This document shows, one piece after another, positions 2,588 through 39,668 of a stretch of DNA of 64,000 nucleotides (its first letter is position 1; each line of letters begins with the position of its first letter). Origin of the DNA: Chloroflexota bacterium (GTDB taxonomy: Bacteria; Chloroflexota; Anaerolineae; B4-G1). A program made the position numbers and the translations under genes. The notes under the pieces are model-generated. The model searched no databases. It saw only the letters and a list, made by a program, of their open reading frames with translations, and was not told the origin of the DNA. The stretch spans positions 133,976-197,975 of the forward strand of contig JAXHUO010000001.1 of NCBI GenBank assembly GCA_034189605.1, in the 5' to 3' direction.

Positions 2588-5500
2588 CGACTGGTTGAAT
2601 GTGGCGGGGGCCGGCGGGGCTGGCGCAATCTGGGGTCTGGGCCTGGCTCGCCTGATGGCGGAAGCGGGCTTCTGGACGCCACTCTACGGCTCTCTCCTGG
2701 CCGTTGCTGGGGTATCCATCGCCTGTGCTGCGATAGCCCTTGCTGTATGGCTGTGGTGGGTGGGTCGTACCTCCACCTCCGACACTCCCACGTCCCTACA
2801 CTCCCGACGCTTTCCCCCGGTGTTTTTTATTCCCCTGGCTCTCCCGCTTCTCTATGTCACAGGTATTGTCTCGTCTCCTCTATCTGGCTGCGTATTGCTT
2901 GCTGGCGGGGTGGTGCTACCGCTGTTGCTGGCGTGGGGGGGGCGGGTGCGTTGGATGCCACCTCTTGTGCTGGGCCTGACGGTGTTTGCACTTTACCTGC
3001 GTACGTTGTTGCCCTCTGTCGGGGTGGCCGACACCTTTGAATTTCAGGTCGTCGTCCCTCGGCTTGCAGTGGCCCATCCCACTGGCTATCCGCTTTACGT
3101 CCTGCTGGCCAAGTTGTTCACGCTGCTGCCGCTGGGACCTGCTCTGGGGGGAACCACAGGGAACGTGGCCTGGCGCGTGAACCTGGCCTCGGCCGTGTTC
3201 GCCACCGCTGCGGTGTTGGTGCTTTACACCCTACTGCAGCGCCTGACCTCTATTCGTCAATCTAAGGAGACTGCACAGTGGCTGCCGGCCTTTCTGGCCG
3301 CGCTCGCTTTCGCTTTTTCATCCACCTTCTGGTCCCAGGCTATCGTCGCCGAAGTCTACGCACTCCACAATTTGCTGGTGGCGGCCATCCTGTGGCTCCT
3401 GTTGGACGTCACCCCACATTCCCATATTCCCAAACTTTCTCTTTCACCATCACGTCGCTGGCAGGCGGTGTTCTTTTTAACTGGTCTGAGCTTCACCAAT
3501 CATCTGACAACGGCGCTGCTGTTGCCTGCCGTGGCGCTGGCTCTTGTGTGGGATCGGCCTCGCCTGCGGATCAAAGATTGGCTGGTTGCCGGGTGTCTAT
3601 TGCTCCTGGGCCTGTCGGTTTACCTTTTTATTCCGCTGCGCTGGCCGGTGTTGAACCACGGCCAGTGGATGGGGTTGCGAGAACTTGTTGCTTATATCAG
3701 TGGTGGTCAATTCCACGGGGCGTTACGGCTTGACGGCTGGCGTGTTCCCCTTCGTTGGAGTATCGTCGGACGATTGCTGCGTGAGCCCTTTGGCTGGATC
3801 GGGCTGCTGCTGGCAGTGGTAGGGGTGGTGCAACTGGCGGTTCGCCAGAAACGAGCACTGGCGCTGACCGGCGTGACTTTCCTGGCCTTTATCCTCTATG
3901 GGCTCGACTACTATGTCCCAGACATCTCTGTCTTTTTGCTCCCCGCCCACCTGATTCTTGCAATCTGGATTGGCGCTGGCATTACCTGCTTTATTGATTC
4001 TCTCTCTACCCTGGCAAAGGTCAGGTGGCGACCTCTGTTTCATTGTTCATTGTTCATTATTTCATTGATCATTGTTCATTGTCTTAGTCCCATCTGGCTC
4101 AACTTCCCCCTGGTGGACCAGAGCCACAATCAAGGCGGCTATGCCTGGGGCCAGTATGTGTTGAATCTTCCCCTTGTCTCGGATAGCGCAGTGCTGGCTG
4201 ACGTGGAAAAATTCGCCCCCTTATACTATTTGCAACAGATCGAGGGGGTGCGGCCTGACCTTGATTTGCTGTTGCTGGGCAGCGAGGAACTCTATCAGGC
4301 GGAACTGGCAGCGCGTCTGGGGGATGGACAGACGGTCTACCTGGCTCGCTATCTGCCACACCTGGAGGGGCTGCATCTGCGCTCGTTGGGGCCCCTGGCA
4401 GAGGTAAGGGGCCGGGGTTTTGCCAAAGACCGGGTCGCTGATAAAGCGGGTGTGAGTTTCGGCGAGGCGATCTGCCTGCTGGATGCCAAAGTGAGCGCTG
4501 ACCCACTGGGGCGAGCGCTGTATCACCTGACGCTCTACTGGCGGGCCGACCCGCGCGTGAGTGGCGATTTCGCCGTCCGGCTGCGGCTGGTGGACGCCGG
4601 GGGTGAGGTGCGCTGGGAGAGGGACGGGATACGGCCTGTGAGCGGCTTGTACCCGACCAACGCCTGGCATGTGGGCGCGGTGGTGTCTGACTACCACGAG
4701 ATATCGCTTCCCCCCTGGCTACCGCGCGGAGAGTACCTGCTGGAGGTGGGACTGTTTCCCCCCTTTGGTGATACGGGCCTGGAGGTGGACGGCGAGGCGA
4801 CGGCCTGGCTGGCTTTGGAGATGCTGAAAGTTGTCCCCCCATCCGGTTCCTTGTCTCCTCTGCCGCATGAGCGGCGCTACTGCTTCTCTACCGGTGCATG
4901 GTTGACGGGATACAATCTGGCTGGTGAGGTTTCTGCCGCCGCGCCGCTCGTCGCCGATCTCTCCTGGCACGGGGTCGAGGTAGACGAGGAGGTGCGTCTG
5001 GTCTGGGTGGATGCGCAGGGGCGGGAGGTGGAGGCGGACGTGTTCCCTCTCGTCGCTGGAGCGCTCCGTAGCCGCTACATCGTCACCGCGCCCCAGACCC
5101 CCGGCGATCACACATTGCGCGTGGGGCTCGTGGGCGAGACCGTTCGCTGCGGCTGGCTGGCTCCGCCGACCGGTGACTGCCTGCTTTCTGCAGTCGAGGT
5201 GGTGTCGGCGCAGGAGGGATTGGCAAACTTTGCTGATCTGGTGCTCTTGCTGGGCGCCGGAGTTGACAGTGCCAGCGCGCGACCGGGTGAGAACGTTCCC
5301 GTAGCACTGAGGTGGCGACCACTGCGAGTGGTGGATGAGGATTATACCGTCTTTGTGCACCTGGTAGGCCCCGATGGACGGTTGCACGGGCAGGTTGATA
5401 TGTGGCCAGTGCATGGGAGTTACCCCACCAGTCAGTGGACACCTGGCGAGGAACTGACCGACCTCTACGAGGTACGATTGGCCCCTGCTGCTCCGCCCGG

Positions 5501-27928: not shown

Positions 27929-30847
27929 CTAACGTGACTTTGTTGTAAACAGGGCGCAGCGGAAGCCTGCTTCGGGACTGGTGGCCGTCTGGTTGCCTTT
28001 GTAGCGGTTGGCGCAGCGCGCGGTCATACGGTTGGAGGACCACGAACCGCCCCGCAGCACTTTAACTGCCCCGGAAGCCGGGCCGTATGGGTCTTGGGAG
28101 ATGGAGGAGTGGGCATAATAGTCCTCACGGTACCAGTTGGCCGTCCACTCCAACACGTTCCCTGCCATGTCTGTGCAGCCGTAGGGGCTGTCCCCCGCCG
28201 GGCTAAAAGTTCCTACCGGCGTCGTGCCTCTTTTGTTCCCTTCCTTCGTGTTACACTTTTGGTCATCCCATCTGTTTCCCCAAGGATACGTCCGTCCATC
28301 CGTGCCCCGGCTTGCTTTCTCCCACTGGGCCTCTGTCGGCAGCCGGTATGGTTTGCCCGTCACCTCTGCCAGCCAGTGGCAGTAGGCCAGTGCATCCCAC
28401 CAACTCACGTTCACTACCGGGTGATCCTCCTTACCCTCCGGCGGGCGACTCCCTTCCCAGTGCTCTGGGGGCCGGCGTCCGGTGGCCTCCACGAAGACGG
28501 CATATTGGGCATTGGTCACTGGATGTTTACCGATCCAATAGTCTGACAGGTAAATCTGACGCTGAGGCTTTTCGGATGCTAGTGCTTTTTTGTCCCGCTC
28601 CTTGCTGCCTCTCAGGAACTCGCCGGCTGGGATGCCCACCATCTCTGGCTCCAGGTGAAAGCGCACATGCAACAGGACCTCTACTTCTGCCACCCCGGCG
28701 TTGGAAACTGCGTGAACGACCTCGCGGTGGTTGCCTGTCGTCAGTCTGACCGTTGACAAACGTACTGGTTGCGCTTCTCCGGCCCGACAGCGGAAGGCGG
28801 CTGGTTTGGCGGTCAGCCAGTCGGCCTCGGCCATCACTGCGCCAGTTAGTACTCCAGGCCCGGTGTTACGCACCATCAGTTTAGCGCTCCTGGTTGCATC
28901 AGGCTGGGCCAGGTCTATGGTCCCCAGGTCTATCTGCGCCGGCTCTACCTGCAAACGGGGGGGCAGGACCCGAATATGAACGCCCAGAACTGTGTGACCG
29001 CCGTTGCTTTCTAACACCAGCGCCCAGGCATGGGTAGCATCGCCTGGCGGGAGCGCCTCCGAATCAACGTTCACTACCACCTGGATGCTGTCCCTGGCTG
29101 GCACTTTGAATTGCTCCGGTGAGGCCGTCAGCCAGCCCACCCGGCAACAGACTCTGCCGATCAGATAGCCCCGGCCGCTGTTGCGGATGGTGAATGTTGT
29201 CTGACTGGTCTCTCCCTGGCCCACCTCGCCAAAGTCGAGCGCTGGAACATCTACCTGTAGTACGGATGGCAGGATGTCTACCCGAACTGTCAAATCCTGG
29301 TCACCGCCTATGCTGTGGATCTGAAGACTATCTGACGACTGAATACGGCCAGATGGCAGGCCACTCAAGTCAGGGTTCACCGTTATGGTAGAACACTCTC
29401 CCGCTTTGCAGCCAAACCACTCTGGTGCGACCTTGAGCCACGGCACCCGGCACACGACATTGCCAAAGAGGTATCCCCGTCCCGTGTTGGTGATGGTCAG
29501 GGTTACCGGTTGCCCGGTCTCTCCCACCCCAACTGCTGGCAGGTCAAGCCTTTTGGGGGTGATATCTATGACTGCCGGGGTCGCGCCCAGCGACTCCAGG
29601 AACTCTTCCAGGCCAGCATTGCGGGCAATATCGTCACCACTCTGGATCCGTTGGACGATGGCCTCTGCTCGCGCGGTGATCACTCCCAGTTCATCGGCTG
29701 GGCCGTGCAGGTGGGCGGTCCGTAAGCGGTTCACACCGTCGCGCAGCCAGTCGGTGATGTAACCTTTGGCAAAGTGATCCACCGCCCGATCCCAGTCGTC
29801 GTCGCATACAGCCGGCAGATCAGCGGGGTCGGTGGCGAGGTGATCGGAGGACAGGATATAAGGGGCCAGCCCGACTGCACCAGACAGGGTGGCGACTGGC
29901 GGCGGAGACGTCGGCGGGAAGGCAGAGAACACAGATGCGGACTGGCCTGTCAGGTCTATGCCTGTGGTAGTGAGAAACGTGGATAGAGACGTGTCCGTGA
30001 TAGAAGCGCCGGCGCCAACCCGGTTCAGGTGTTCGATGAACTCATCGGCACTTTGGTAGCGGTCACGTGGGTTCTTGGCCATCGCTTTGATAATGATCCG
30101 GTCAATATCTGACGGCAGAGCCGGGTTGAGTTGGCTGGCTATGGGAATCGGGTCATTTACGTGCTTGAGGAGAACCGCCACCCCTGAGTCCGCGCTGTAT
30201 GGGGGCTGGTCGGTCACCATCTGAAAGAACATGGCCCCCAACGAATAGATGTCGCTACGTGCGTCTTGGGGTTTTCCCAATCCTTGTTCGGGGGATATAT
30301 AGTTAGGTGTGCCCGCTATTGCTCCGGCGGAGGTGTACTGAGGGCTACCCAGAATCTTGACTATGCCAAAATCTGTCAGAATCACCTGGTTATCTCGATT
30401 GATCATGACGTTGGATGGTTTGATGTCCCGGTGGATCATATTGCGGCCGTGGGCATAAGAGAGCGCAGATGCCACGTCTCTGGCGATGCGGGTCGCTTCC
30501 TCTAATGGCATGATCTTGTTGTTGTCTGTCAGTTCACGCAGTTTCGCTTCCAGGGTATAACCATCAATGAATTCCATGACGATGTAATAGTACACGCCAT
30601 CCGTTACGTCAAAATCGTGCACCTGCACAATATTGGGGTGGCGGAGATGGCCTGCTGCCTTGGCTTCGCGTTGGAACCGGTCCAGAAAATCCTTGTCTTC
30701 AGCGAGAAAGGAGTGCAGAATTTTGATTGCAACGTGCCGATCCAGCGCCGGGTGATAGGCCTGGTAGACCTCGGCCATTGCCCCTCGCCCGAGGAGTTCC
30801 ATTATCTGGTATTTGCCAAGTGTTTTGCCGATGATCGAATCCACCAT
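27929..30847 (-). CDS. Ser/Thr protein kinase with Ig-like repeats and a C-terminal FGE-sulfatase (SUMF1) domain
   Basis: Kinase motifs GRGAMAEV, VAIK, HRDIKPSN, DFG; repeated LDFG..N.G.G.L.G....WL modules; RLPTEAQWEKA and DMAGNVLEW. Confidence 0.9.
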   Translation of the reverse strand: MVDSIIGKTLGKYQIMELLGRGAMAEVYQAYHPALDRHVAIKILHSFLAEDKDFLDRFQREAKAAGHLRHPNIVQVHDFDVTDGVYYYIVMEFIDGYTLEAKLRELTDNNKIMPLEEATRIARDVASALSYAHGRNMIHRDIKPSNVMINRDNQVILTDFGIVKILGSPQYTSAGAIAGTPNYISPEQGLGKPQDARSDIYSLGAMFFQMVTDQPPYSADSGVAVLLKHVNDPIPIASQLNPALPSDIDRIIIKAMAKNPRDRYQSADEFIEHLNRVGAGASITDTSLSTFLTTTGIDLTGQSASVFSAFPPTSPPPVATLSGAVGLAPYILSSDHLATDPADLPAVCDDDWDRAVDHFAKGYITDWLRDGVNRLRTAHLHGPADELGVITARAEAIVQRIQSGDDIARNAGLEEFLESLGATPAVIDITPKRLDLPAVGVGETGQPVTLTITNTGRGYLFGNVVCRVPWLKVAPEWFGCKAGECSTITVNPDLSGLPSGRIQSSDSLQIHSIGGDQDLTVRVDILPSVLQVDVPALDFGEVGQGETSQTTFTIRNSGRGYLIGRVCCRVGWLTASPEQFKVPARDSIQVVVNVDSEALPPGDATHAWALVLESNGGHTVLGVHIRVLPPRLQVEPAQIDLGTIDLAQPDATRSAKLMVRNTGPGVLTGAVMAEADWLTAKPAAFRCRAGEAQPVRLSTVRLTTGNHREVVHAVSNAGVAEVEVLLHVRFHLEPEMVGIPAGEFLRGSKERDKKALASEKPQRQIYLSDYWIGKHPVTNAQYAVFVEATGRRPPEHWEGSRPPEGKEDHPVVNVSWWDALAYCHWLAEVTGKPYRLPTEAQWEKASRGTDGRTYPWGNRWDDQKCNTKEGNKRGTTPVGTFSPAGDSPYGCTDMAGNVLEWTANWYREDYYAHSSISQDPYGPASGAVKVLRGGSWSSNRMTARCANRYKGNQTATSPEAGFRCALFTTKSR

Positions 30848-31100: not shown

Positions 31101-31304
31101 AATGCGGCGTTGTTGTGCTGTATGCCCGAGTAGTTACCCAGTATAAATATAAACCGGAATCAACATTGTCAGGGTTTCACTTGCGTTACGGTTTCGTTGC
31201 GCCGCGTCACTCGTGCAGACAAAAACAATCCTGCACATCTCACGCACGCAGTGGTAGCCGTGGCGTGGGTTGTCCCAGGATTGCTTCCAGTTCCACCCGT
31301 TTTA

Positions 31305-32630
31305 TTACCCAATCGCCCGATCAATTGCCTGGCTCACCACCTGGACGTCGGCTGGCAATTCCAGCGGTGGGTTGGCGTGGCGGGCGACCACGTCCGCCAG
31401 TCTCTCTTCGTGGTAATCCACCTTGAATCCGGTGAACTTGAGGCCGTGGGCGGTGGAGATGACGACGACACGGTGTTTTGGCAGGATCATGCCCCGTTTC
31501 ACCAGTTTGAACAGAACTGCCAACGCTACGCCGGTCTGGGGGCAGCAGTATAGCCCGGCACGGTCGGCGCGGGCGGCGGTGTTTGCCAGTTCATCCTCGC
31601 TGGCTTGCTCGACGATACCATCAAAGGCTCTCAGCGCCTTGACCGCGCGCTCGTAACTGACCGGCGCACCAATCTGGATGGCGCTAGCCAGCGTCTTTCG
31701 TGCTGACACTGGCCGGTACTCCTTAAAGCCCGTCAGGTAACTCTGGTAGAGCGGGTTGGCGTTTGCGGCCTGGGCACAGGCGATGCGCGGCAGCCTGTTT
31801 ATCAACCCTAATTCCTGCATCATCAGGAAGCCTCGGCTAAGTGCGCTGACGTTGCCCAGGTTGCCCGCCGGTATGACTACCCAATCCGGCACCTCCCAGC
31901 CAAATTGCTGGACGATCTCAAAAGCGACTGTCTTTTGGCCCTCAATACGCAGCGAGTTCATCGAGTTAGCCAGGTAGATGGTCTGGTCGGCCGTCACCTG
32001 TTGCACGACGCGCATGCAGCCATCAAAGTCAGTGTCGAGCGCCAGCACCAGCGCGCCGTGGGCAATGGGTTGCACCAGTTGGGCGGTGGAGACTTTGCCC
32101 CGGGGCAGGAAGACGATAGCGGGGATGCCGGCCGCAGCCGCGTAGGCAGCCAGCGCCGCCGATGTGTCGCCGGTGGAGGCGCAGGCCACCGCCCGGATTG
32201 GCTTCCCGTCGGCGATCATTTGCCGTACCACCGACGCCAGCACTGTCATACCCAGGTCTTTGAATGAGCCGGTGTGGCTGTTACCGCACAACTTGACCCA
32301 CAGGTCGGACACGCCAATCTCTTGCCCCAGTCGCTCTGCCCAAAAGCAATTGGTGTGTCCCTCGTACATAGAGACGACATTCTCGGCCTCCACCTGAGGG
32401 CAAACCCACTCCTTTTTGCCCCACACGCCGCTGCCGTAGGGCCACTCGTTCGTCCGCGTCCGCTGGTCGAAGAGGCGCATCCACGCGGCTGCGCTGCGGT
32501 TCTTTAGCGCTTCTAGATCGTGCTCCACGTCCAGCAACCCCCCGCAATCCTCGCAGTGGTAGACGACATCGTAGATGGAATAGCGACGTCCGCAGCCACG
32601 GATACACTCAAACCAACTGTTGTAGATCAT
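31305..32630 (-). CDS. thrC: Threonine synthase
   Basis: PLP-lysine motif [10 protein letters not shown]; [22 protein letters not shown] and STAHGLKF motifs. Confidence 0.95.
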
Positions 32631-32704: not shown

Positions 32705-33835
32705 TCATTCGCCCACGGCGTGCGTCTCTACCCGGTGGATGGGCCGGTATCCCTGGGCTGCCAGGTCGTCCGTCGGGATGGAGGCCTCGTCAGGCTTGTC
32801 CGAAAGACCGAACAGTAGCGCGCCTTGTGTTTGCCACTTTAGCGCCATCTCCCGTACCTCCTGCGTGATGACGATCTCCTGTCCCAGCAAGTTCTCTACC
32901 GCTGCCTCGTCCTCCAGCCACCCCATCCGCTCGACGGTGGCATGGTACTCGTTGTAGCGAAAGGCCTTGAAGGGGGTGGGGTCGCCCTGCTGCACGAGGG
33001 CGTGAACGCTGCTGTGAATCTGGTGCAGGTTGGCGGGCAATTCGCCTGCACGGTCGTCTACCTCGGCGATGAACTGCTCAAAGTTCATCAATTGCCCGGC
33101 GCGCACCTGGGCCACCAGCGGCTCTAGTCTGTACAGACCACTGCCCAGGATCAAGCAGACGTAGGCCAGATAGTCCTGGTTGTCGCTGGTAAAGGGGTGG
33201 AACTCGGGCTGGTTGAGGCGGTCATAAGCGGTCTGAAAGTTCTCCGCGTTAAAGTCAGCCCCCAGCAAGTCGCCGACGGTGCGGCGCACCGCCTCGACCC
33301 GTGCCTGGTCAATGACGTGATCGTTGCGCCCGCGCGCACCTAACGCCGTCTTGTCCAGGTCAACGATTATCGCCGTCCGCTCGTCCAGCGGGAAACGGTG
33401 CTGGCGGCAGAAACGGTCAAATCCAGAAAGCGCCGCCCAGCGGTTCGCCAGATGGAGCGTGCCCCCGTCCTGTTCGACGACCTCCACGCGCGCGGGCTCG
33501 TCCCGTTCGGCCCCGATGAAGGCCAGGCCAGGCCAGCCGCCAGCGCGGCAGATATTGGCAAAGGCGGTGCCGTCGTTCATCTGCGTGTCTCCCACGTAGA
33601 TCAGCCGCTCGATGGGAGTGCCTGGCGCACCCAATGCCCGCGCCTGCCGCAGCAGATAGGCCATAACGCGGGCATACTCTGGTTGGCTCTTGCGCGGGAT
33701 GATACCTTCTGGCAACCCCACGTGCTCGCGAATCTCGTCCAGCGGCGGCAGTCGTCGGTCAACCGGCACCAGGTTGCGGTAGACGACCATGTCGCCCAGA
33801 AATTCGTAGACAGACGTACGGCCATGATTCTCCAT
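32705..33835 (-). CDS. Uncharacterised HAD-like protein with motifs in permuted order
   Basis: RKSQPEY, IYVGDTQMND, IVDLDKT and GLSDKP motifs. Start at ATG 33835 (RBS AGGAG) or 33853. Confidence 0.7.
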   Translation of the reverse strand: MENHGRTSVYEFLGDMVVYRNLVPVDRRLPPLDEIREHVGLPEGIIPRKSQPEYARVMAYLLRQARALGAPGTPIERLIYVGDTQMNDGTAFANICRAGGWPGLAFIGAERDEPARVEVVEQDGGTLHLANRWAALSGFDRFCRQHRFPLDERTAIIVDLDKTALGARGRNDHVIDQARVEAVRRTVGDLLGADFNAENFQTAYDRLNQPEFHPFTSDNQDYLAYVCLILGSGLYRLEPLVAQVRAGQLMNFEQFIAEVDDRAGELPANLHQIHSSVHALVQQGDPTPFKAFRYNEYHATVERMGWLEDEAAVENLLGQEIVITQEVREMALKWQTQGALLFGLSDKPDEASIPTDDLAAQGYRPIHRVETHAVGE

Positions 33836-34015: not shown

Positions 34016-34969
34016 TTAGAAGTCTATCTTCCCAAGAATGTGCTGCTTGTACCACTCGACTGTTTTCTCCAGCCCTTCTTCCAGTGTCGTGGTTGGATTG
34101 TAGCCCAATAGCCTGCGCGCTTTTTCAATATTGGCGTGTGTCTTTAGTTGGTCTCCCGCTCTCCTGGGAACCCTTGTTATCCTGGCTGGTTTGCCGATGA
34201 TCTCCTCCACAGTTCTTTTTCCTTCTTCTGTGGTAAGCGTGACATCTGTTCCGATGTTAAAAATCTCGCCGATGCACCTGTCAAAGTTGGCCAGGGCTGC
34301 TACCATTCCATCTATGGCGTCCCCGACATAAGTGTAACTTCGCAGGTGGTGTTCGCTGCCCTCGCACAGCGGGAATTCTCTATCTTCGAGAATGCAGCGG
34401 ATCAGTTTGGAGTACAACTTCTCCGGTCGCTCACGCGGTCCGTATACAGAGAATAGCCGCAACGAACAGGCCGGCAACCCTTGCTCTCGCGTGTACGCAA
34501 GCACGAGTTGTTCTGCAGCGAGTTTGGTGACTCCATAATATGACGTGGGTTTGGGTTCCGTTGTCTCGTCTCCGCTGGCGTCGGCTCCGTATATGGATGA
34601 CGTGGAGATATTGATGAACCCTTGGAACGAAGGGGATAACCTGACGGCTTCCAGCAGCCGGTATGTTGCCGTGATGTTGTTTCTCACGTATGTCTCAAAT
34701 GTGGTCGTGGCGGATATCCCAGGCTGTGCGGCCACGTGATACACGAATTCGATATCTCTGACGGCCAAACTGAGGTCATCCTCTGCCAGATCGAGGGGCA
34801 AAAGTACGACGCCCTTGTTTTTTATCTGACTGGCGTTGAGTTCCTTGAGCGCCCTGGCATAGTAATCCGTGAAGCAATCCAGCCCGCGCACAGAATGGCC
34901 CAAGTTTACCAATCGCTCCGCCAAGTGGGATCCGATAAAGCCTGCTGCTCCTGTTATGAGAATGTTCAT
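34016..34969 (-). CDS. NAD-dependent epimerase/dehydratase (extended SDR)
   Basis: ITGAAGFIGS, STSSIYG, YGVTK and VYGP motifs. Confidence 0.92.
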   Translation of the reverse strand: MNILITGAAGFIGSHLAERLVNLGHSVRGLDCFTDYYARALKELNASQIKNKGVVLLPLDLAEDDLSLAVRDIEFVYHVAAQPGISATTTFETYVRNNITATYRLLEAVRLSPSFQGFINISTSSIYGADASGDETTEPKPTSYYGVTKLAAEQLVLAYTREQGLPACSLRLFSVYGPRERPEKLYSKLIRCILEDREFPLCEGSEHHLRSYTYVGDAIDGMVAALANFDRCIGEIFNIGTDVTLTTEEGKRTVEEIIGKPARITRVPRRAGDQLKTHANIEKARRLLGYNPTTTLEEGLEKTVEWYKQHILGKIDF

Positions 34970-35076: not shown

Positions 35077-36171
35077 CTACGTCCTTGCCAGATAACCTTT
35101 GGCTTTGAGCAGTTCGGCGCTCAAGATTGCGCCGCCGGCTGCTCCTCGGATCGTGTTGTGCGACAAGGCGACGAATCGGATGTCCATCACCGGGCATTCA
35201 CGCAAGCGCCCGACGGTCACGGCCATGCCCTTTCCAGCGTCCCGATCCTTACGAGGCTGCGGCCGAACCTTTTCACCCCGGTAAATGATAGGCGATTTGG
35301 GGGCAAAAGGAAGACCCAGTTCCTGCGGCTCGGCCCTGAATTCGCTCCAGATGGCGATAATCTCGTCCAGCGAGGGTGGGGCCGACTCGAACTTTAGGCT
35401 GACACAGGCTGTATGACCATTTGTGATGGGGACGCGGTTGCAATGGGCCGAAATCCTCAACGAGTCGTTATAGACGAACTCGCCATTTTTAATAGAGCCA
35501 ATTATTTTCAGTGGCTCGCACTCGGTTTTCTCTTCCTCGCCCGGTATAAAGGGAACAACGTTGTCAATCATATCTATTGATGCAGGCCCAGGGTAACCTG
35601 CGCCGGACACCGCTTGAAGGGTAGTAACAACCAGGCTCTCGACAGGATACCCGGCTGCTATTAGAGCGTAAACGGGAGGCAAGTAGCTCTGTAGGCTGCA
35701 GTTTGGTTTTACTACAATGAACCCTCTGTCCCAACCTCTGTTCTTCTGCTGAAAGGGAATAATGTCGGTGTGATCGGAGTTTACTTCCGGGATGAGCATC
35801 GGGACATCTTTTGTATGGCGGTGTGCCGAGTTGTTAGAGATGACCGGAATGCCGCTGGCTGCATACCTCTCCTCCAGTGCGCGCACGGCCTGTTTTTCCA
35901 TCTCGACGGCAGAAAACACAAGGTCGCATTGGGTTCTCGCTTCTTCCACGTCACGGGCGTGGCCGACGACCAGGTTGGCAATTTCCTCTGGGATATCTTT
36001 ATCCATCAACCAACGACCTGCCACTGCCTCGGAGTACTTTTTTCCTGCGGACCTGGGAGACGCGGAGACGTACGTTACCTGAAACCAGGGATGATCCTTC
36101 AAAAGCCGCAGATAGTTTTGCCCAACCATACCAGTTGCGCCGACGACCCCCACTTTTGTTTTTTTCATCAT
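35077..36171 (-). CDS. asd: Aspartate-semialdehyde dehydrogenase (archaeal/fungal-type branch)
   Basis: GATGMVGQ, KPNCS, QAVSGAGYPG and SHNTIRGAAG motifs. Confidence 0.93.
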   Translation of the reverse strand: MMKKTKVGVVGATGMVGQNYLRLLKDHPWFQVTYVSASPRSAGKKYSEAVAGRWLMDKDIPEEIANLVVGHARDVEEARTQCDLVFSAVEMEKQAVRALEERYAASGIPVISNNSAHRHTKDVPMLIPEVNSDHTDIIPFQQKNRGWDRGFIVVKPNCSLQSYLPPVYALIAAGYPVESLVVTTLQAVSGAGYPGPASIDMIDNVVPFIPGEEEKTECEPLKIIGSIKNGEFVYNDSLRISAHCNRVPITNGHTACVSLKFESAPPSLDEIIAIWSEFRAEPQELGLPFAPKSPIIYRGEKVRPQPRKDRDAGKGMAVTVGRLRECPVMDIRFVALSHNTIRGAAGGAILSAELLKAKGYLART

Positions 36172-36325: not shown

Positions 36326-37738
36326 CTACCCGCTATTGATAACTACCTCACTATGAATCTTCCGCACCGCGTCTGCGGCGGTGTCGGCTGCGACGACGAG
36401 GGAAATGCTACATTCGGATGAGCCCTGGGCGATGGCGATGACATTGATATCCCCCTGGCCCAGCGCGCCAAAGATGCGGGCAGCGACACCCGGCGTGCCG
36501 CGCATTCCTGCACCCACGGCGGTCACAATCACTACCTCGTCCAGTGACCAGACACGGTCCACGTCTCGCCGTGTCAGTTCCAGCGTCATCTCCTCCTCAA
36601 TGGCGCGGATGACCGGCGGCGCTACCTGCGTGGGGATGACGAAACAGATGGATTGCTCTGACGAAGCCTGTGAGATCATCAGCACGCTGGCCCCCTGGCT
36701 GGCGACGGCGGAGAAGGTGCGGGCGGCGATGCCGGGCACGCCCATCATGCCCCGCCCCTCGACCGTCACCATACTCAATCCACTGATGGCGGTGACTGCC
36801 TTGACCGTGCCGGATGCGCTCTCTGGCTCGCGGACGATGCGGGTTCCAGGACAGGTCGGATTGAAAGTGTTCTTGACCCACAGCGGGATGGAGCGTTCGA
36901 CGACGGGCCGGATGGTCCGGGGGTGCAGCACTTTGGCCCCAAAGTAGGCCAGTTCGCCTACCTCGCCGTAGGAGAGGACAGGGATCACCCGGGCATCGGG
37001 CACGATGCGGGGGTCGGCGCTCATCACGCCATCCACGTCGGTCCAGGTCCAGACCTCGTCGGCGTCCAGGCAGTCGCCCAGGATGGCGGCGCTGTAATCG
37101 CTGCCGCCTCGACCCAGCGTCGTCGTCACGCTCTCATCTGTCGCCCCTATGAAGCCGGTCACGACGGGGATGATCCCCTCGTCCAGCAGCGGAGCCAGAT
37201 GGGCGGCGACCCGGGCGCGGGTACCATCCATCAGCGGCACACTGTTCTGGAAGGTATCGTCGGTGACGATCAGTTCGGTGGCGTCCACTGGGTCGCTGCG
37301 GGCTCTCTGTTGGCGCAGGAGGGCGGCCAGGATGCGGGCACTGATGCGCTCACCCAGCGAGGTGATGGCGTCCATCGCGCGCGGGGTGACCTCGCCCAGG
37401 ATGTGGATGCTGCGGCAAAAGGCGGCAAACTCATCCAGGTACTCATCTACCGTGGCAAGCAATTGGGCACGCTCGCCGTCCGGGGACAGCAGCGCATCCA
37501 CAGCGCGGTAGTGGCGTACGCGCAGGTCGGCGACGGTGGCGTGGTAGGTCTGTTCGTCACCAGATGCGGCGGTAAGTGCGCCCTTGGTCAGTGCATTGGT
37601 AACACCGCTCATTGCCGAGACGACGATGACCAACCTGTCCCAGTTTTGGGCCTGTTCCAGCACAAGGTCGGCGGCCTGGGTGAATGCTTCGGCACTGCCG
37701 ACTGAGGTGCCGCCGAATTTCATTATCAGTGTGCTCAT
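36326..37738 (-). CDS. Aspartate kinase with two ACT domains
   Basis: MKFGGTSVG, VSAMSG, TLGRGGSDYSA, GAKVLHP, SQASSE and AQGSSE motifs. Confidence 0.95.
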   Translation of the reverse strand: MSTLIMKFGGTSVGSAEAFTQAADLVLEQAQNWDRLVIVVSAMSGVTNALTKGALTAASGDEQTYHATVADLRVRHYRAVDALLSPDGERAQLLATVDEYLDEFAAFCRSIHILGEVTPRAMDAITSLGERISARILAALLRQQRARSDPVDATELIVTDDTFQNSVPLMDGTRARVAAHLAPLLDEGIIPVVTGFIGATDESVTTTLGRGGSDYSAAILGDCLDADEVWTWTDVDGVMSADPRIVPDARVIPVLSYGEVGELAYFGAKVLHPRTIRPVVERSIPLWVKNTFNPTCPGTRIVREPESASGTVKAVTAISGLSMVTVEGRGMMGVPGIAARTFSAVASQGASVLMISQASSEQSICFVIPTQVAPPVIRAIEEEMTLELTRRDVDRVWSLDEVVIVTAVGAGMRGTPGVAARIFGALGQGDINVIAIAQGSSECSISLVVAADTAADAVRKIHSEVVINSG

Positions 37739-37781: not shown

Positions 37782-38831
37782 CTACCCGGTAGACGCGAGG
37801 TTGATGACGTCCCCTAACAGGCCAGCGGCCGTGACCTCCGGGCCAGCGCCAGGGCCAGAGAGGATCAATGGTATCTCGGCGTAGCGTATCGTGTGCAGGG
37901 CGACGTGGTTCGCAGGGCCGGGTGGGGGCGTAGCCACCAATCCTACCTCGCCACCGGCGGGGCCGACGCGGGCTATGTAGCGCAAAGTCTGTCCCCTGGC
38001 CTGTGCCTCACTGGTGCGGGTGGTGTATTCATCGTCCAGCGTGGGCGTGGCTGCTATAAACTCTTTGGTTGAAACACCGGCCAGCGACTCAGGATACAGT
38101 GGTTCGACTGACAGGTTGGCCATTTCCAGCGGCCAGCCGGCGGTGCGGGCCAGGATGAGTGTTTTGCGGGCCACGTCCCGCCCGCTCAGGTCCTCCCGCG
38201 GGTCGGGCTCGGTGTAGCCCAGCGTGCGGGCTTGAGAGAGGGCGGCAGAGTACGGCACGCCGCGTTCCAGTTCGGCGCACAAGTAGCCCAACGTTCCGCT
38301 CAGGCAGCCCTCGATGGCGGTAGCCTGATCGCCGGTATCAAGCAGGTAGCGCAGAGTGGCGATGATGGGCAACCCGGCTCCCACAGTGGCCTCGTAACGC
38401 AGGCGGGGATGTTCGAAGAACGATTTCGTTTTGGCCCAGGGGCTGCTCAGCGGGATTTTGTTGGCCAGGACGAGACCGCAGCCAGCGCCCAGCGCAGCCC
38501 GCAGCGTGGGGTCTGTCTTGGGGGATGCGGTCACATCCACCACGATGGTGCCTGCTCGCAGCGCATCATCCACCTCGTTCAGGGGGCGGATCCCCGGCAG
38601 AGTGTTCAGTGGTCGGCCTTCTGTCTTGGCTTCCAGCGCGGCATGTAGGGTCTCGTTGGGTAGGCCAGCGGGGTCGAGCAGCAGTCCCTGGCTATCGGCC
38701 AGGCCGATGGGGGTCAGCCGCAGCCTGGCCCGGCGGGCGAGCACGGCACGGGTGTCGAGGATCTGGCGTAGCAGTGCCCGTCCGACGTTGCCCAGGCCGA
38801 GAATGATAATGGTAGTCTGTCTCACATCCAC
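37782..38831 (-). CDS. hom: Homoserine dehydrogenase
   Basis: GLGNVG, ANK, YEATVGAGLP, SGT, EPDPREDLSG and GPGAG motifs. Confidence 0.92.
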   Translation of the reverse strand: MDVRQTTIIILGLGNVGRALLRQILDTRAVLARRARLRLTPIGLADSQGLLLDPAGLPNETLHAALEAKTEGRPLNTLPGIRPLNEVDDALRAGTIVVDVTASPKTDPTLRAALGAGCGLVLANKIPLSSPWAKTKSFFEHPRLRYEATVGAGLPIIATLRYLLDTGDQATAIEGCLSGTLGYLCAELERGVPYSAALSQARTLGYTEPDPREDLSGRDVARKTLILARTAGWPLEMANLSVEPLYPESLAGVSTKEFIAATPTLDDEYTTRTSEAQARGQTLRYIARVGPAGGEVGLVATPPPGPANHVALHTIRYAEIPLILSGPGAGPEVTAAGLLGDVINLASTG

Positions 38832-39313
38832 GCCACGATCTCCGTGAAAATGGTGCCGCTCTGTAAGTCGGCCGGAGGGAGTACTTGGTATTCGCCCCGA
38901 AGCACGCGCTCGGCGATGCGACGCGATTGGGCCTCGACTGGCTCCTCCAGCGCGGTCAGTTCCTCTAGTGAAAAGAAAGCGGCCGCGTCGTTCTCAATCC
39001 CGTCGGCGACCGGCTCTGCGTCACCGGTTGGTCGGCAGAGGAATACAACAAAGACGTGGGGCGGGACGTGGGGAGGCGGTGGGGCCACGACGCTGGTCAA
39101 CCCAATCAAGCCTACGACCTCCACCTCGATGGACGCTTCCTCCTGGAGTTCCCGGCAGATTGTCTTGTCCACCGTCTCGCCCGGTTCGGAGCGCCCGGCG
39201 GGCACAACCCACTGACTGGCGAAAGGCGGGTAGGTCTGGCGGACGAAGAGCACGCGGTCGTTCCGCACGACGACAGCGCCAACGGCAACGAAGGGGAGAT
39301 TGAGTTGCTTCAC
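38822..39313 (-). CDS. NUDIX hydrolase
   Basis: NUDIX box GRSEPGETVDKTICRELQEEASI; RBS AAGGAGG. Confidence 0.88.
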   Translation of the reverse strand: MKQLNLPFVAVGAVVVRNDRVLFVRQTYPPFASQWVVPAGRSEPGETVDKTICRELQEEASIEVEVVGLIGLTSVVAPPPPHVPPHVFVVFLCRPTGDAEPVADGIENDAAAFFSLEELTALEEPVEAQSRRIAERVLRGEYQVLPPADLQSGTIFTEIVAWM

Positions 39314-39373: not shown

Positions 39374-39625
39374 CAAAAAACCCCTGCGCCTGGGGCGCGG
39401 GGGTCTCCCACGTGGTTCCACCCAAGTTCTACAGCGGAATGCTGCAGCACTCTGCGGCGATAACGGGCCGTCCGAAGCCCCATACTCTCGCACGACGGCG
39501 ATTTAAGGGACCCGCTCCCGGGTGGTTTTCCCGCCTGTCCGGTCGAGGGGGCTCGCAGCCGGTGGCCTCCTCTCTCTTGGACCTTCACCAGGTGGTACTC
39601 GTCCCGGTCAATGCTTTGGTACACT
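39374..39625 (-). promoter_or_regulatory. T-box riboswitch with Thr (ACC) specifier and intrinsic terminator
   Basis: Minus strand: AGTA box, GAAA-ACC-A specifier loop (ACC at 39524-39526), T-box AACTTGGGTGGAACCACG (39411-39428), then a GC hairpin and T6; lies upstream of the thr genes. Confidence 0.88.
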
Positions 39626-39639
39626 CGATTGTGAATAAG

Positions 39640-39668
39640 ATTATATCATCCCCGTTGAGATTTGGCAA
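39640..39668 (-). promoter_or_regulatory. Sigma70 promoter TTGCCA-N17-TATAAT (extended TG) for the T-box leader
   Basis: Direct sequence match on the minus strand. Confidence 0.75.

What the first reader, a model, noticed from the sequence alone, without database searches (positions are those of the whole stretch)
32705..33835. Circularly permuted HAD protein upstream of thrC in a T-box thr cluster lacking thrB: candidate new homoserine phosphotransferase
Seen: the minus-strand cluster behind a Thr T-box encodes hom, aspartokinase, asd and thrC, but no GHMP- or APH-type homoserine kinase. The uncharacterised gene directly upstream of thrC has HAD-like motifs in the order III (RKSQPEY), IV (IYVGDTQMND), I (IVDLDKT, the DxDxT nucleophile), II (GLSDKP), instead of I-II-III-IV. 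Known: ThrC needs O-phosphohomoserine, and Pseudomonas ThrH is a HAD-family phosphoserine:homoserine phosphotransferase. Inference: this permuted HAD may fill the missing step. Caveat: an epimerase and a methyltransferase remnant lie between it and asd, so the adjacency may be accidental.
Basis: partly seen in the sequence, partly recalled or inferred. Interest (0 to 1): 0.78.

Follow-up and report, generated by a model that had tools for sequence, protein, structure and literature searches.

The report
Permuted HAD enzyme, candidate homoserine kinase
A conserved, unnamed Chloroflexota gene that sits between asd and thrC encodes a rearranged HAD-type phosphoryl-transfer enzyme, and it is a strong but untested candidate for the homoserine-phosphorylating step that these genomes otherwise seem to lack.

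Summary
Window 32705-33835 (-) encodes a 376-aa protein with no Pfam, NCBIfam or PDB sequence match. Its HAD catalytic motifs run III-IV-I-II and are invariant or nearly so across 75 diverse homologues. Weak profile matches, Pfam hits on two family members and a confident AlphaFold model (pLDDT 97.7) all fit a circularly permuted HAD core with a roughly 165-residue helical cap.

The gene lies in a Thr (ACC) T-box operon: nudix-hom-ask-asd-SDR-X-thrC. The adjacency is not accidental. In 80 related loci, asd or ask lies upstream in 57 of 70 and thrC downstream in 46 of 65. Even 31-37%-identical homologues follow asd directly (18 of 20). Seven protein clusters are aspartokinase-X fusions.

In 301 genomes of the phylum, 23 carry X. 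All 23 have thrC, and none has canonical thrB or HomK (TIGR02535).

Caveats:
- 20 of the 23 carry a sub-threshold APH-like protein resembling type II homoserine kinase.
- One carries ThrH.
- Several relatives have ThrC-family genes but neither X nor any known kinase type searched.

Best reading, at about 0.55: X forms O-phosphohomoserine through an aspartyl-phosphate intermediate, with the phosphate donor unknown. No experiment exists.

The parts
39640..39668 (-). sigma-70-like promoter (TTGCCA, 17 nt, TATAAT, with TG)
   Evidence: 11 of 12 hexamer positions match, directly upstream of the T-box. This is a consensus match only.
39388..39620 (-). T-box leader with specifier ACC (Thr). Its terminator hairpin and U-tail lie at about 39380-39398.
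   Evidence: RF00230, 95.9 bits (gathering 93). The specifier was read from the alignment. The same ACC appears in the T-boxes of L047 and L054.
38822..39313 (-). NUDIX hydrolase gene, the first ORF of the operon. It overlaps the start of hom by 10 nt.
   Evidence: PF00293, E 1.7e-21. The same nudix-hom order appears in L036.
37782..38831 (-). homoserine dehydrogenase (hom)
   Evidence: PF00742, PF03447.
36326..37738 (-). aspartokinase (ask) with two ACT domains
   Evidence: PF00696; TIGR00657 at 419.9 bits.
35077..36171 (-). aspartate-semialdehyde dehydrogenase (asd)
   Evidence: NF006416 at 456.4 bits; TIGR00978 at 374.7 bits.
34016..34969 (-). SDR epimerase/dehydratase, a lineage-specific insertion between asd and X
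   Evidence: PF01370, E 3.7e-51. It occupies the same place in only 3 of 80 related loci (L031, L032, L068) and in L177. Elsewhere asd abuts X.
32705..33835 (-). gene X: a 376-aa protein of a large unnamed family, a circularly permuted HAD-like enzyme
33674..33697 (-). motif III region (residues 47-54, R48/K49)
   Evidence: R48 is invariant and K49 at least 90% conserved in A2. It aligns to the motif III Lys region of HAD_2 in hhalign.
33572..33604 (-). motif IV (residues 78-88, G82-D83...D88) at the end of strand 77-82
   Evidence: It aligns to the C-terminal motif of HAD proteins (2hcf_A residues 157-193; HAD_2 positions 115-211; the equivalent stretch of P0266 matches HAD_2 profile 139-171 of 178).
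33347..33370 (-). motif I (residues 156-163, D159 x D161 x T163) at the end of strand 154-159
   Evidence: It aligns to motif I of 2hcf_A (residues 3-29) and of HAD_2.
32828..33322 (-). all-helical cap insertion (residues 172-336) carrying the conserved DNQDY and GDPTPFK..FR..E blocks
   Evidence: Secondary structure from the AF2 model; conservation.
32786..32818 (-). motif II (residues 340-350, S345-D346-K347-P348) after strand 340-344
31305..32630 (-). threonine synthase (thrC), of the subtype that travels with X
   Evidence: TIGR00260 at 228.1 bits (cut-off 167.1); this subtype (model positions 12-337, 209-229 bits) is found only in the 6 X-bearing genomes among 21 relatives.
31231..31251 (-). 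terminator-like hairpin after thrC
   Evidence: This is a consensus match only.

Best explanation
Gene X encodes a new, circularly permuted member of the HAD (haloacid dehalogenase-like) phosphoryl-transfer superfamily. It supplies O-phospho-L-homoserine to threonine synthase, in place of homoserine kinase ThrB.

Proposed mechanism (inferred from general HAD chemistry, which I recall rather than tested):
- A phosphate donor phosphorylates D159, the motif I nucleophile.
- Mg2+ is held by D159, the backbone at D161, and D83/D88 (motif IV).
- S345 (motif II) and K49 (motif III) hold the phosphoryl group.
- D161 acts as the acid/base that activates the gamma-hydroxyl of homoserine to take the phosphate.
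- The roughly 165-residue helical cap, with its conserved Arg/Lys-rich blocks, closes over the site and selects the substrates.

The donor is unknown. Candidates are a phosphomonoester such as phosphoserine (as for ThrH), an acyl phosphate, or ATP.

Expression is induced when tRNA-Thr is uncharged, through the Thr T-box at the head of the operon.

Shown here: the motif order and its conservation, the model topology, the operon structure, the synteny, the fusions and the phyletic pattern. Inferred: the reaction, the donor and the residue roles.
For: 1. Pathway hole.
- The window's genome has thrC, hom, ask and asd.
- It has no thrB above cut-off; the best hit scores 28.8 bits, and the hits are HddA-like kinases, galK and mvk.
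- It has no thrB_alt above cut-off (40.5 bits against 255.9).
- It has no ThrH and only one shikimate-kinase domain.
- Its TIGR02535-like hit is an NF003160 phosphoglycerate mutase at 587 bits. This is the only PGM type found in the genome. That family occurs in 93 of 301 genomes, including thrB-positive families (f26 17 of 17, f18 6 of 6), and in 0 of 18 X-bearing f19 genomes.

2. Synteny, in 80 related loci.
- thrC lies on the same strand within 3 kb downstream in 46 of the 65 loci with enough flank (within 300 nt in 29).
- asd or ask lies on the same strand upstream in 57 of 70 (within 300 nt in 48).
- 66 of 77 loci are linked in at least one of these ways.
- In 20 further loci, asd directly precedes X in 18, 16 of them with homologues only 31-37% identical.
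- In L114 the two ORFs overlap by 4 nt and their neighbours are unrelated.

3. Fusion. Seven 90%-identity clusters (25 member sequences, 841-896 aa) are aspartokinase+ACT fused to full-length X.

4. Regulation. A Thr (ACC) T-box heads the operon here and in 2 of 9 other loci tested.

5. Phyletic pattern, in a sample of 301 genomes of the phylum.
- X is in 23 genomes, and all 23 have thrC.
- thrB is in 214 genomes and in 0 of those 23.
- TIGR02535 is in 28 genomes and in 0 of those 23.
- Among 21 close relatives, the ThrC subtype adjacent to X occurs only in the 6 genomes with X.
- The one X-bearing relative that also has thrB (G312) carries an X with most of the cap deleted.

6. Chemistry.
- All four HAD motifs are conserved.
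- Family member P0238 reaches Pfam's cut-off for PF00702 (26.6 against 26.4 bits). Its residues 145-353 match profile positions 3-142 of 191.
- In P0266, residues 54-86 match HAD_2 profile positions 139-171 of 178.
- The family profile matches the HAD protein 2hcf_A in three stretches in permuted order (whole-sequence E 0.13).
- hhalign against a 28-sequence HAD_2 alignment gives two local matches in permuted order (E 0.0012 and 0.0072).
- The AF2 model has pLDDT 97.7 and pTM 0.93, with the strand order expected of a core cut between S3 and the motif III helix.

7. Precedent. ThrB2/HomK was predicted from the same kinds of evidence (PMC9026213, passages read). It was later confirmed by complementation (bioRxiv 10.1101/2024.10.14.618325, passages and Appendix 3 read).
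Against: - There is no experiment of any kind.
- Structure searches did not place the model in the HAD fold with confidence. Foldseek found nothing (best E 2.3e-3, TM 0.15). VIA-align's best Z was 7.3, to a generic Rossmann-like domain. The HAD phosphatase 6iah_A ranked second at Z 6.6, rmsd 4.0, 151 residues aligned. All of these are below the level at which a match means more than a common arrangement.
- I could not measure whether the four motifs converge in space, because no coordinates are available to me.
- The query itself has no Pfam or NCBIfam hit. Only 3 of 75 members hit PF00702 at E up to 5.
- The complementarity is less clean than it first looks. 20 of the 23 X-bearing genomes (all 18 of family f19, plus G015 and G271) carry an APH-family protein that weakly resembles type II homoserine kinase. 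It scores 61-128 bits on TIGR00938 (cut-off 255.9) and 110 bits on NF003558 (cut-off 271) in L174. In those genomes phyletic data cannot separate the two candidates.
- X-bearing genome G094 encodes a ThrH (NF010109, 234 bits against a cut-off of 133).
- 40 of the 278 X-lacking genomes have neither thrB nor TIGR02535.
- In the window's own order, 14 of 21 genomes lack X, thrB and thrB_alt although all 21 have ThrC-family hits. The five of these checked further also lack HomK and ThrH. At least one more unknown solution, or auxotrophy, therefore exists nearby.
- Related genomes are not independent. X occurs in about five families in the sample.
- Only 2 of 9 related loci showed a T-box.
Confidence: 0.55

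Rival explanations
1. X is a HAD-type phosphatase or phosphotransferase that serves the aspartate pathway in another way, while the real homoserine kinase is something else. Possible roles are a phosphoserine phosphatase, or an enzyme acting on beta-aspartyl phosphate or O-phosphohomoserine for regulation or salvage. The real kinase would be the diverged APH-like protein in family f19, or an unknown enzyme in the window's own lineage.
For: - The D-x-D motif I with an acid/base second Asp is typical of phosphatases and mutases (recalled knowledge).
- An APH-like protein with homoserine kinase as its best NCBIfam match is present in 20 of 23 X-bearing genomes.
- SerB (TIGR00338) was found in only 2 of 61 genomes of the phylum, so a phosphoserine phosphatase is also missing.
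- Relatives with ThrC-family genes but no X and no known kinase show that another solution exists.
Against: - A phosphatase that destroys pathway intermediates would be counter-productive in an operon induced by Thr starvection signals, that is, by uncharged tRNA-Thr.
- X tracks asd, ask and thrC, not serA or serC.
- X is present in only 23 of 301 genomes, whereas SerB is missing almost everywhere, so X cannot be the phylum's general phosphoserine phosphatase.
- The APH-like protein also occurs in 12 thrB-positive genomes. It is absent from the window's genome, G002 and G094 and from X-bearing close relatives. Its neighbours in L174 show no threonine context.
Confidence: 0.25
2. X has a function unrelated to threonine synthesis. 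On this reading its position next to asd and thrC is inherited gene order without functional meaning.
For: - 11 of 77 loci show no thrC, asd or ask next to X.
- L119 and L120 also lack asd next to X.
- One family member is fused to a JAB domain instead (P0177).
Against: - The asd-X adjacency survives down to 31% identity, with overlapping ORFs.
- There are independent aspartokinase fusions.
- X is exclusive with thrB and HomK in the 301-genome sample.
- X co-occurs with one ThrC subtype.
- Unselected gene order is not expected to persist across such divergence.
Confidence: 0.08
3. X is not a HAD-fold enzyme at all. On this reading the motif resemblance is convergent or due to chance.
For: - Structure searches gave no confident HAD match.
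- The rotation test did not merge the two local profile matches.
- The query has no Pfam hit.
Against: - Four motifs with the right residues sit at the ends of the right predicted strands.
- P0238 passes Pfam's PF00702 cut-off.
- Three independent profile comparisons place the two halves on the matching halves of HAD proteins.
- The best specific structural match is a HAD phosphatase covering motif I through motif II.
Confidence: 0.07

Closest known systems
ThrH, phosphoserine:homoserine phosphotransferase / phosphoserine phosphatase (NF010109, TIGR02137)
   Same: It is a HAD-superfamily enzyme with an Asp nucleophile, and it makes O-phosphohomoserine without a GHMP kinase. [quoted passage not shown]
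   Different: X gives no hit to the ThrH models. X is 376 aa against a model length of about 205. Its motif order is III-IV-I-II instead of I-II-III-IV, and it has a roughly 165-residue helical cap. One X-bearing genome (G094) has a separate true ThrH. The donor for X is unknown.
HomK / ThrB2 (TIGR02535; BT2402)
   Same: It is a non-orthologous replacement of ThrB, recognised by complementary occurrence with thrB and co-localisation with asd, hom and thrC. It was later confirmed by complementation, and its donor is also unknown (PMC9026213 passages; GapMind 2026 preprint).
   Different: It has an unrelated fold and chemistry: it is a cofactor-independent phosphoglycerate-mutase-like metalloenzyme with a Ser nucleophile. 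In the 301-genome sample, none of the 28 genomes with TIGR02535 has X.
Canonical homoserine kinase ThrB (GHMP family, TIGR00191) and type II ThrB (APH fold, TIGR00938)
   Same: The proposed product (O-phospho-L-homoserine) and the pathway position directly before ThrC are the same.
   Different: Both are ATP-dependent kinases of unrelated folds. X matches neither model. thrB is absent from all 23 X-bearing genomes. Only sub-threshold APH-like proteins occur alongside X.
DvMF_0971, the shikimate-kinase-like homoserine kinase of Desulfovibrio vulgaris
   Same: It is another recruited, non-orthologous homoserine kinase, proven by thrB complementation (PMC5764234, passages read).
   Different: It has a P-loop kinase fold. 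The window's genome has a single shikimate-kinase domain, so no spare copy.
Ordinary HAD phosphatases (PF00702, PF13419; for example PDB 2hcf and 6iah)
   Same: They share the four catalytic motifs and a Rossmann-like core with a cap inserted after motif I. There are weak but consistent profile and structure matches.
   Different: The order of the two halves of the core is swapped. The cap is far larger. The flap region carries an invariant G-A-R-G-R-N block. No curated model recognises the query itself.

Membership tests
HAD superfamily | Motif I: D-x-D-x-[TV] following a hydrophobic strand | tested here: met
   D159, D161 and T163 are at least 90% conserved in 75 sequences. They lie at the end of predicted strand 154-159 and align to motif I of 2hcf_A and of HAD_2.
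HAD superfamily | Motif II: Ser/Thr at the end of the next core strand | tested here: met
   S345 is at least 90% conserved, directly after strand 340-344. The role is inferred from position only.
HAD superfamily | Motif III Lys/Arg and motif IV acidic residues (GDxxxD type) | tested here: met
   R48 is invariant and K49 at least 90% conserved. G82 is invariant, and D83 and D88 are at least 90% conserved. The region aligns to the C-terminal motifs of HAD_2 and 2hcf_A.
HAD superfamily | Motifs in the order I-II-III-IV along the chain | tested here: not met
   The order is III-IV-I-II. The profile matches are likewise in permuted order. This is the basis for calling the protein a circular permutant rather than an ordinary member.
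HAD superfamily | Rossmannoid core fold recognisable by structure comparison | tested here: inconclusive
   The model is confident (pLDDT 97.7), but Foldseek found nothing. VIA-align gave Z 6.6 to the HAD phosphatase 6iah_A and Z 7.3 to a generic Rossmann-like domain. Sequential aligners handle permutations poorly.
HAD superfamily | Match to a curated HAD profile (PF00702, PF13419) | tested here: inconclusive
   The query has no hit. Among the 75 members, PF00702 is hit by 3, and one of these (P0238) scores 26.6 bits against the cut-off of 26.4. HAD_2 is hit by 1.
ThrH (NF010109 / TIGR02137) | Score above the curated cut-off of the equivalog model | tested here: not met
   X has no NCBIfam hit at E up to 0.01.
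ThrB, GHMP type (TIGR00191) | Score above the curated cut-off | tested here: not met
   X has no hit.
ThrB type II, APH fold (TIGR00938 / NF003558) | Score above the curated cut-off | tested here: not met
   X has no hit.
HomK / ThrB2 (TIGR02535) | Score above the curated cut-off | tested here: not met
   X has no hit.
Homoserine-phosphorylating enzymes (by function) | Forms O-phospho-L-homoserine; rescues a thrB mutant | not testable with these tools
   This needs complementation and enzyme assays.

The most novel reading that the evidence does not exclude
X is a phosphotransferase that takes its phosphate from beta-aspartyl phosphate, the product of aspartokinase, and passes it to homoserine. 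Aspartokinase would then supply both the carbon skeleton and the phosphoryl donor for threonine synthesis, and the pathway would need no separate ATP-dependent homoserine kinase.

This would explain three things:
- X is fused to aspartokinase in seven protein clusters.
- X is translationally coupled to asd, the other consumer of aspartyl phosphate, even where thrC and hom lie elsewhere.
- X keeps the acid/base Asp of phosphomutase-type HAD enzymes.

Nothing here tests the donor. The idea is inference from gene linkage.
Probability: 0.12. Interest if true: 0.9.

Novelty: new variant of a known kind. Interest (0 to 1): 0.78.

Why it matters
Homoserine kinase is one of the four steps that still account for most unexplained gaps in amino-acid biosynthesis. 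It is missing in 16 of 208 prototrophic prokaryotes in the GapMind 2026 preprint (passages read).

This family is large. At least 3560 proteins match at E up to 0.001, and it occurs in at least 520 species-level genomes. It has no name in any library searched.

Identical or near-identical homologues are on record in cultured phototrophs such as Chloroflexus aurantiacus J-10-fl and Oscillochloris trichoides DG-6. A one-plasmid complementation test is therefore immediately possible.

If confirmed, this would:
- close a gap in metabolic reconstructions of Anaerolineae and Chloroflexia, which are abundant in sludge, sediments and mats;
- stop false calls of threonine auxotrophy in those groups;
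- add a further independent origin of this step;
- provide a natural circular permutant of the HAD core. I found no report of one in the library searched (three papers listed, passages read in one, none relevant).

Tried and rejected
- Foldseek against PDB found no meaningful match.
- VIA-align against 48,161 chains gave only middling, generic matches.
- Rotation test. I rotated the columns of A2 at 26 cut points and re-ran hhalign against the HAD_2 alignment. The top local score stayed at about 31.4 at nearly all cuts. The two partial matches never merged, probably because of the 165-residue cap. The test is inconclusive.
- ESM Atlas. The whole protein gave only its own clusters, then HAD clusters at 0.76-0.77, which is a lead only. 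Residues 146-376 alone gave no usable hit.
- AlphaFold with the shallow 21-sequence alignment gave a poor model (pLDDT 67.4). It was replaced by the 75-sequence run.
- The search for related loci with A2 failed for lack of a conserved stretch. I repeated it with A1.
- I tried to build a SerB-type comparison set, but TIGR00338 was present in only 2 of 61 genomes. I used HAD_2 instead.
- I tried to read the HomK specificity residue (E299 of BT2402) in the window genome's apgM-like protein from an alignment with eight TIGR02535 proteins. I could not map the published numbering with confidence, so I relied on the phyletic test instead.
- RNA evidence: no RNA holder was listed.
- Complex prediction on Asd with X returned no answer (score 0.00, mark 0.32). 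This is evidence neither for nor against binding.
- The search of earlier findings returned nothing for this place.
- Literature searches that found nothing relevant:
  - accessions of the Chloroflexus and Oscillochloris homologues;
  - 'Chloroflexus' with 'homoserine kinase' (one listing, irrelevant by title);
  - 'homoserine kinase' with 'Chloroflexi' and 'missing';
  - 'homoserine kinase' with 'haloacid dehalogenase' (12 listings, of which only PMC9026213 was read in passages, and it has no HAD-type ThrB).
- Supplementary tables of the GapMind papers, which may list which prototrophs lack thrB, could not be seen.
Full report
WHAT IS THERE

Window 32705-33835 (-) is an intact ORF of 376 aa. 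It has a good ribosome-binding site and starts at the same position as its homologues. It matches nothing at E up to 0.01 in Pfam or NCBIfam, and phmmer at E up to 10 finds no solved structure.

The family is nevertheless very large and tightly conserved. At least 3560 proteins match at E up to 0.001. The best 120 are 72-100% identical and almost all 376-378 aa long. Every name given by a source is 'hypothetical protein', from Anaerolineae or Chloroflexi metagenome bins. A search without a word index found 362 cluster representatives, down to about 30% identity.

THE OPERON

On the minus strand the order is as follows:
- a sigma-70-like promoter, 39668-39640
- a T-box leader, 39620-39388 (95.9 bits against a gathering score of 93)
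- a NUDIX hydrolase
- hom
- aspartokinase
- asd
- an SDR epimerase/dehydratase
- X
- thrC
- a terminator-like hairpin, 31251-31231

In the cmscan alignment the specifier-loop sequence reads GAA-A-ACC-A, so the specifier is ACC, which codes for threonine. The same ACC is kept in the two other T-boxes I found in related loci.

Between the T-box terminator and the end of thrC, the only minus-strand terminator-like site in an intergenic gap is a weak 5-bp stem just before X. I saw no methyltransferase remnant between asd and X.

THE PERMUTATION

In a 75-sequence alignment reaching down to 28% identity, the catalytic positions are invariant or at least 90% conserved. These are R48, K49, G82, D83, D88, D159, D161, K162, T163, S345, D346, K347 and P348.

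Three independent profile comparisons place the N-terminal part of X on the C-terminal part of ordinary HAD proteins, and the C-terminal part of X on the N-terminal part of ordinary HAD proteins:
- The family profile against PDB sequences matches the HAD hydrolase 2hcf_A in three stretches. Query 151-177 pairs with chain 3-29, query 313-342 with chain 85-114, and query 62-99 with chain 157-193. The whole-sequence E-value is only 0.13.
- hhalign against 28 HAD_2 domains from related genomes gives two local matches. Query 30-135 pairs with HAD 115-211 (E 0.0012) and query 151-346 with HAD 2-188 (E 0.0072). The motif residues are aligned in both.
- Pfam on single family members. P0238 reaches the PF00702 cut-off (26.6 against 26.4 bits), with residues 145-353 on profile positions 3-142 of 191. 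In P0266, residues 54-86 match HAD_2 positions 139-171 of 178.

The deep-alignment AlphaFold model is confident (pLDDT 97.7, pTM 0.93). Its elements run in this order:
- the motif III segment
- helix 52-69
- strand 77-82, ending in G82-D83
- helix 85-99
- strand 103-108
- a hairpin
- helix 133-145
- strand 154-159, ending in D159
- an all-helical insert, residues 172-336
- strand 340-344, followed by S345
- a last strand, 371-375

This is what a HAD core would look like if it were opened between strand S3 and the motif III helix and closed between S5 and S1. That topological reading is my inference.

Structure searches do not confirm the fold. Foldseek found nothing. In the exhaustive VIA-align search the best Z was 7.3, to a generic Rossmann-like domain. 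A HAD phosphatase (6iah_A) ranked second with Z 6.6, rmsd 4.0 and 151 residues aligned, pairing model 154-373 with chain 1-166. My rotation test with hhalign was uninformative.

I could not measure distances in the model. Convergence of the four motifs on one site therefore remains untested.

LINK TO THREONINE SYNTHESIS

It is not.

In 80 loci from other species, I counted neighbours where enough flank was available:
- thrC follows X on the same strand within 3 kb in 46 of 65 loci (within 300 nt in 29).
- asd or ask precedes X in 57 of 70 loci (within 300 nt in 48).
- 66 of 77 loci show at least one of these links.
- 11 loci do not: L033, L039, L057, L080, L086, L091, L098, L099, L101, L108 and L109.

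In most loci asd abuts X directly. The SDR gene between them is found only here, in L031, L032 and L068 (3 of 80), and in L177.

In 20 X-bearing genomes from elsewhere in the phylum, asd lies directly upstream on the same strand in 18. In 16 of these X is only 31-37% identical to the window's protein. In L114 the two ORFs overlap by 4 nt and the flanking genes are unrelated.

Seven protein clusters (25 member sequences, 841-896 aa) are seamless fusions of aspartokinase plus ACT domains to full-length X.

THE PATHWAY HOLE

The window's genome is 94.7% complete with 7.5% contamination. It has the following:
- No thrB. The best score is 28.8 bits against a cut-off of 168, and the hits are two HddA-like kinases, galK and mvk.
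- No thrB_alt above cut-off (40.5 against 255.9 bits).
- No ThrH.
- Only one shikimate-kinase domain.

Its one TIGR02535-like gene scores 587 bits on the phosphoglycerate-mutase model NF003160. The GapMind 2026 preprint shows that a HomK can hide under a PGM label, so I checked further. The genome has no GpmI and no GpmA above cut-off. NF003160 proteins occur in 93 of 301 genomes, including thrB-positive families, but in none of the 18 X-bearing f19 genomes. This gene is therefore the glycolytic mutase, not the missing kinase.

PHYLETIC PATTERN

In an even sample of 301 genomes of the phylum:
- X is in 23.
- thrC is in 288, including all 23 with X.
- thrB is in 214, and in none of the 23.
- TIGR02535 is in 28, and in none of the 23; four of the 28 also have thrB.

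These tallies include five genomes flagged as unpublished. All five are X-negative, and no individual claim rests on them.

Among 21 close relatives, X is in six genomes. The ThrC subtype that sits next to X occurs in exactly those six. One of the six, G312, also has a canonical thrB on another contig. Its X has an in-frame loss of roughly residues 226-328, and the asd next to it is a remnant. G312 is a bin with 9% contamination, so this is an anecdote and not a test.

WHAT CUTS AGAINST THE READING

- No type II (APH-fold) homoserine kinase reaches its cut-off anywhere in the 301 genomes. However, a weaker APH-like protein (61-128 bits against a cut-off of 255.9) is present in 42 of them. These include all 18 f19 genomes, G015 and G271, which is 20 of the 23 with X. 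They also include 12 thrB-positive genomes and 10 that lack both thrB and X.
- In L174 the best NCBIfam match of that protein is homoserine kinase, at 110 bits against a cut-off of 271, and its neighbours give no clue. In family f19, co-occurrence therefore cannot separate X from this protein.
- The APH-like protein is absent from the window's genome, G002 and G094 and from the X-bearing close relatives.
- G094, a complete genome with X, has a genuine ThrH (234 bits against a cut-off of 133).
- 40 of the 278 X-lacking genomes have neither thrB nor TIGR02535.
- In the window's own order, 14 of 21 genomes lack X, thrB and thrB_alt while all have ThrC-family hits. The five of these that I checked also lack HomK and ThrH. 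Either they are auxotrophs carrying ThrC paralogues, or yet another solution exists.

MOST LIKELY FUNCTION

X most likely makes O-phosphohomoserine for ThrC by HAD-type catalysis through an aspartyl-phosphate intermediate on D159. I put this at about 0.55.

The D-x-D form of motif I points to transfer between a phospho-donor and an alcohol rather than direct use of ATP, as in ThrH and the phosphomutases. That is recalled general knowledge, and the donor is open.

The fusion to aspartokinase and the tight coupling to asd suggest a bolder possibility: that beta-aspartyl phosphate is the donor. I give this about 0.12.

COMPARISON WITH WHAT IS KNOWN

X is not a member of ThrB, type II ThrB, HomK or ThrH by their models. 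It would work like ThrH.

It belongs to the HAD superfamily by its motifs and weak profile matches, but it fails the canonical motif order. I therefore call it a new, permuted family within a known superfamily, filling a known step in a new way.

I found no paper on this family or on a permuted HAD in the searches listed. The GapMind 2026 preprint still counts thrB among the main unexplained gaps, and its main text does not mention Chloroflexi. Its supplements could not be read.

Proteins identical to the homologues in L114, L113 and L115 are on record as hypothetical proteins of Chloroflexus aurantiacus J-10-fl (ABY33469.1), Chloroflexus sp. Y-396-1 (WP_028459811.1) and Oscillochloris trichoides DG-6 (OSCT_1454). 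This gives cultured sources for a direct test.

Noticed in passing
window 38822-39313 (-): A NUDIX hydrolase is the first gene behind the Thr T-box and overlaps the start of hom by 10 nt. The same nudix-hom order occurs in L036. Its role in a threonine operon is unexplained.
   Followed up: partly
window 34016-34969 (-); also L031, L032, L068, L177: A full-length SDR epimerase/dehydratase is inserted between asd and X in this lineage only (3 of 80 related loci, plus L177). Elsewhere asd abuts X.
   Followed up: partly
L177 (G312:C16) about 3805-4602; L178 (G312:C96): In one relative, X has an in-frame loss of about residues 226-328 (most of the cap), and the neighbouring asd is reduced to its last ~45 residues. 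A canonical thrB (258.9 bits) lies on another contig. This could be decay of X where thrB is present, but the bin has 9% contamination.
   Followed up: partly
L174:3872-4876 (-) and the hits: An APH-fold protein that weakly resembles type II homoserine kinase (61-128 bits, cut-off 255.9) is present in 42 of 301 genomes. It is enriched among thrB-lacking genomes (30 of 87 against 12 of 214), including families f19, f35 and f56. It may be a diverged homoserine kinase in its own right.
   Followed up: partly
G076, G148: Two thrB-lacking, X-lacking, TIGR02535-lacking genomes each carry two NF003160-type 'phosphoglycerate mutase' genes. One copy might be a disguised HomK, as reported for Dehalococcoides DET_RS08350 in the GapMind 2026 preprint.
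   Followed up: no
G313, G315, G317, G319 (family f70): Four genomes of the window's order (92-100% complete) have a well-scoring ThrC (225-233 bits) but none of X, thrB, thrB_alt, HomK or ThrH. This is another unfilled homoserine-kinase gap.
   Followed up: partly
P0225, P0250, P0253, P0254, P0267: Distant relatives of X (about 31-34% identity) are 607-816 aa long. They have N-terminal extensions of 230-430 residues with no Pfam match, and they keep the catalytic motifs. Their taxa and gene context are unknown.
   Followed up: no
P0177, P0203: One family member carries a C-terminal prokaryotic JAB domain. Another has the N-terminal half of X joined to MFS transporter sequence, which may be a gene-call artefact.
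   Followed up: no
window 31305-32630 (-): The ThrC found with X scores lower on TIGR00260 (E about 1e-59 to 1e-67) than ThrC of thrB-bearing genomes (mostly 1e-80 to 1e-100). It also begins with a Cys-rich stretch containing two C-x-x-C pairs. This is a distinct ThrC subtype that travels with X.
   Followed up: partly
Classical phosphoserine phosphatase SerB (TIGR00338) was found in only 2 of 61 genomes of the phylum, both X-bearing (G011, G036). The phylum's usual phosphoserine phosphatase is something else.
   Followed up: no
window 27929-30847 (-): This 972-aa ORF has an N-terminal Ser/Thr protein-kinase-like region and a C-terminal region that looks like a formylglycine-generating-enzyme/sulfatase-modifying domain. 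I read this from the translation; the labels are recalled and were not tested.
   Followed up: no
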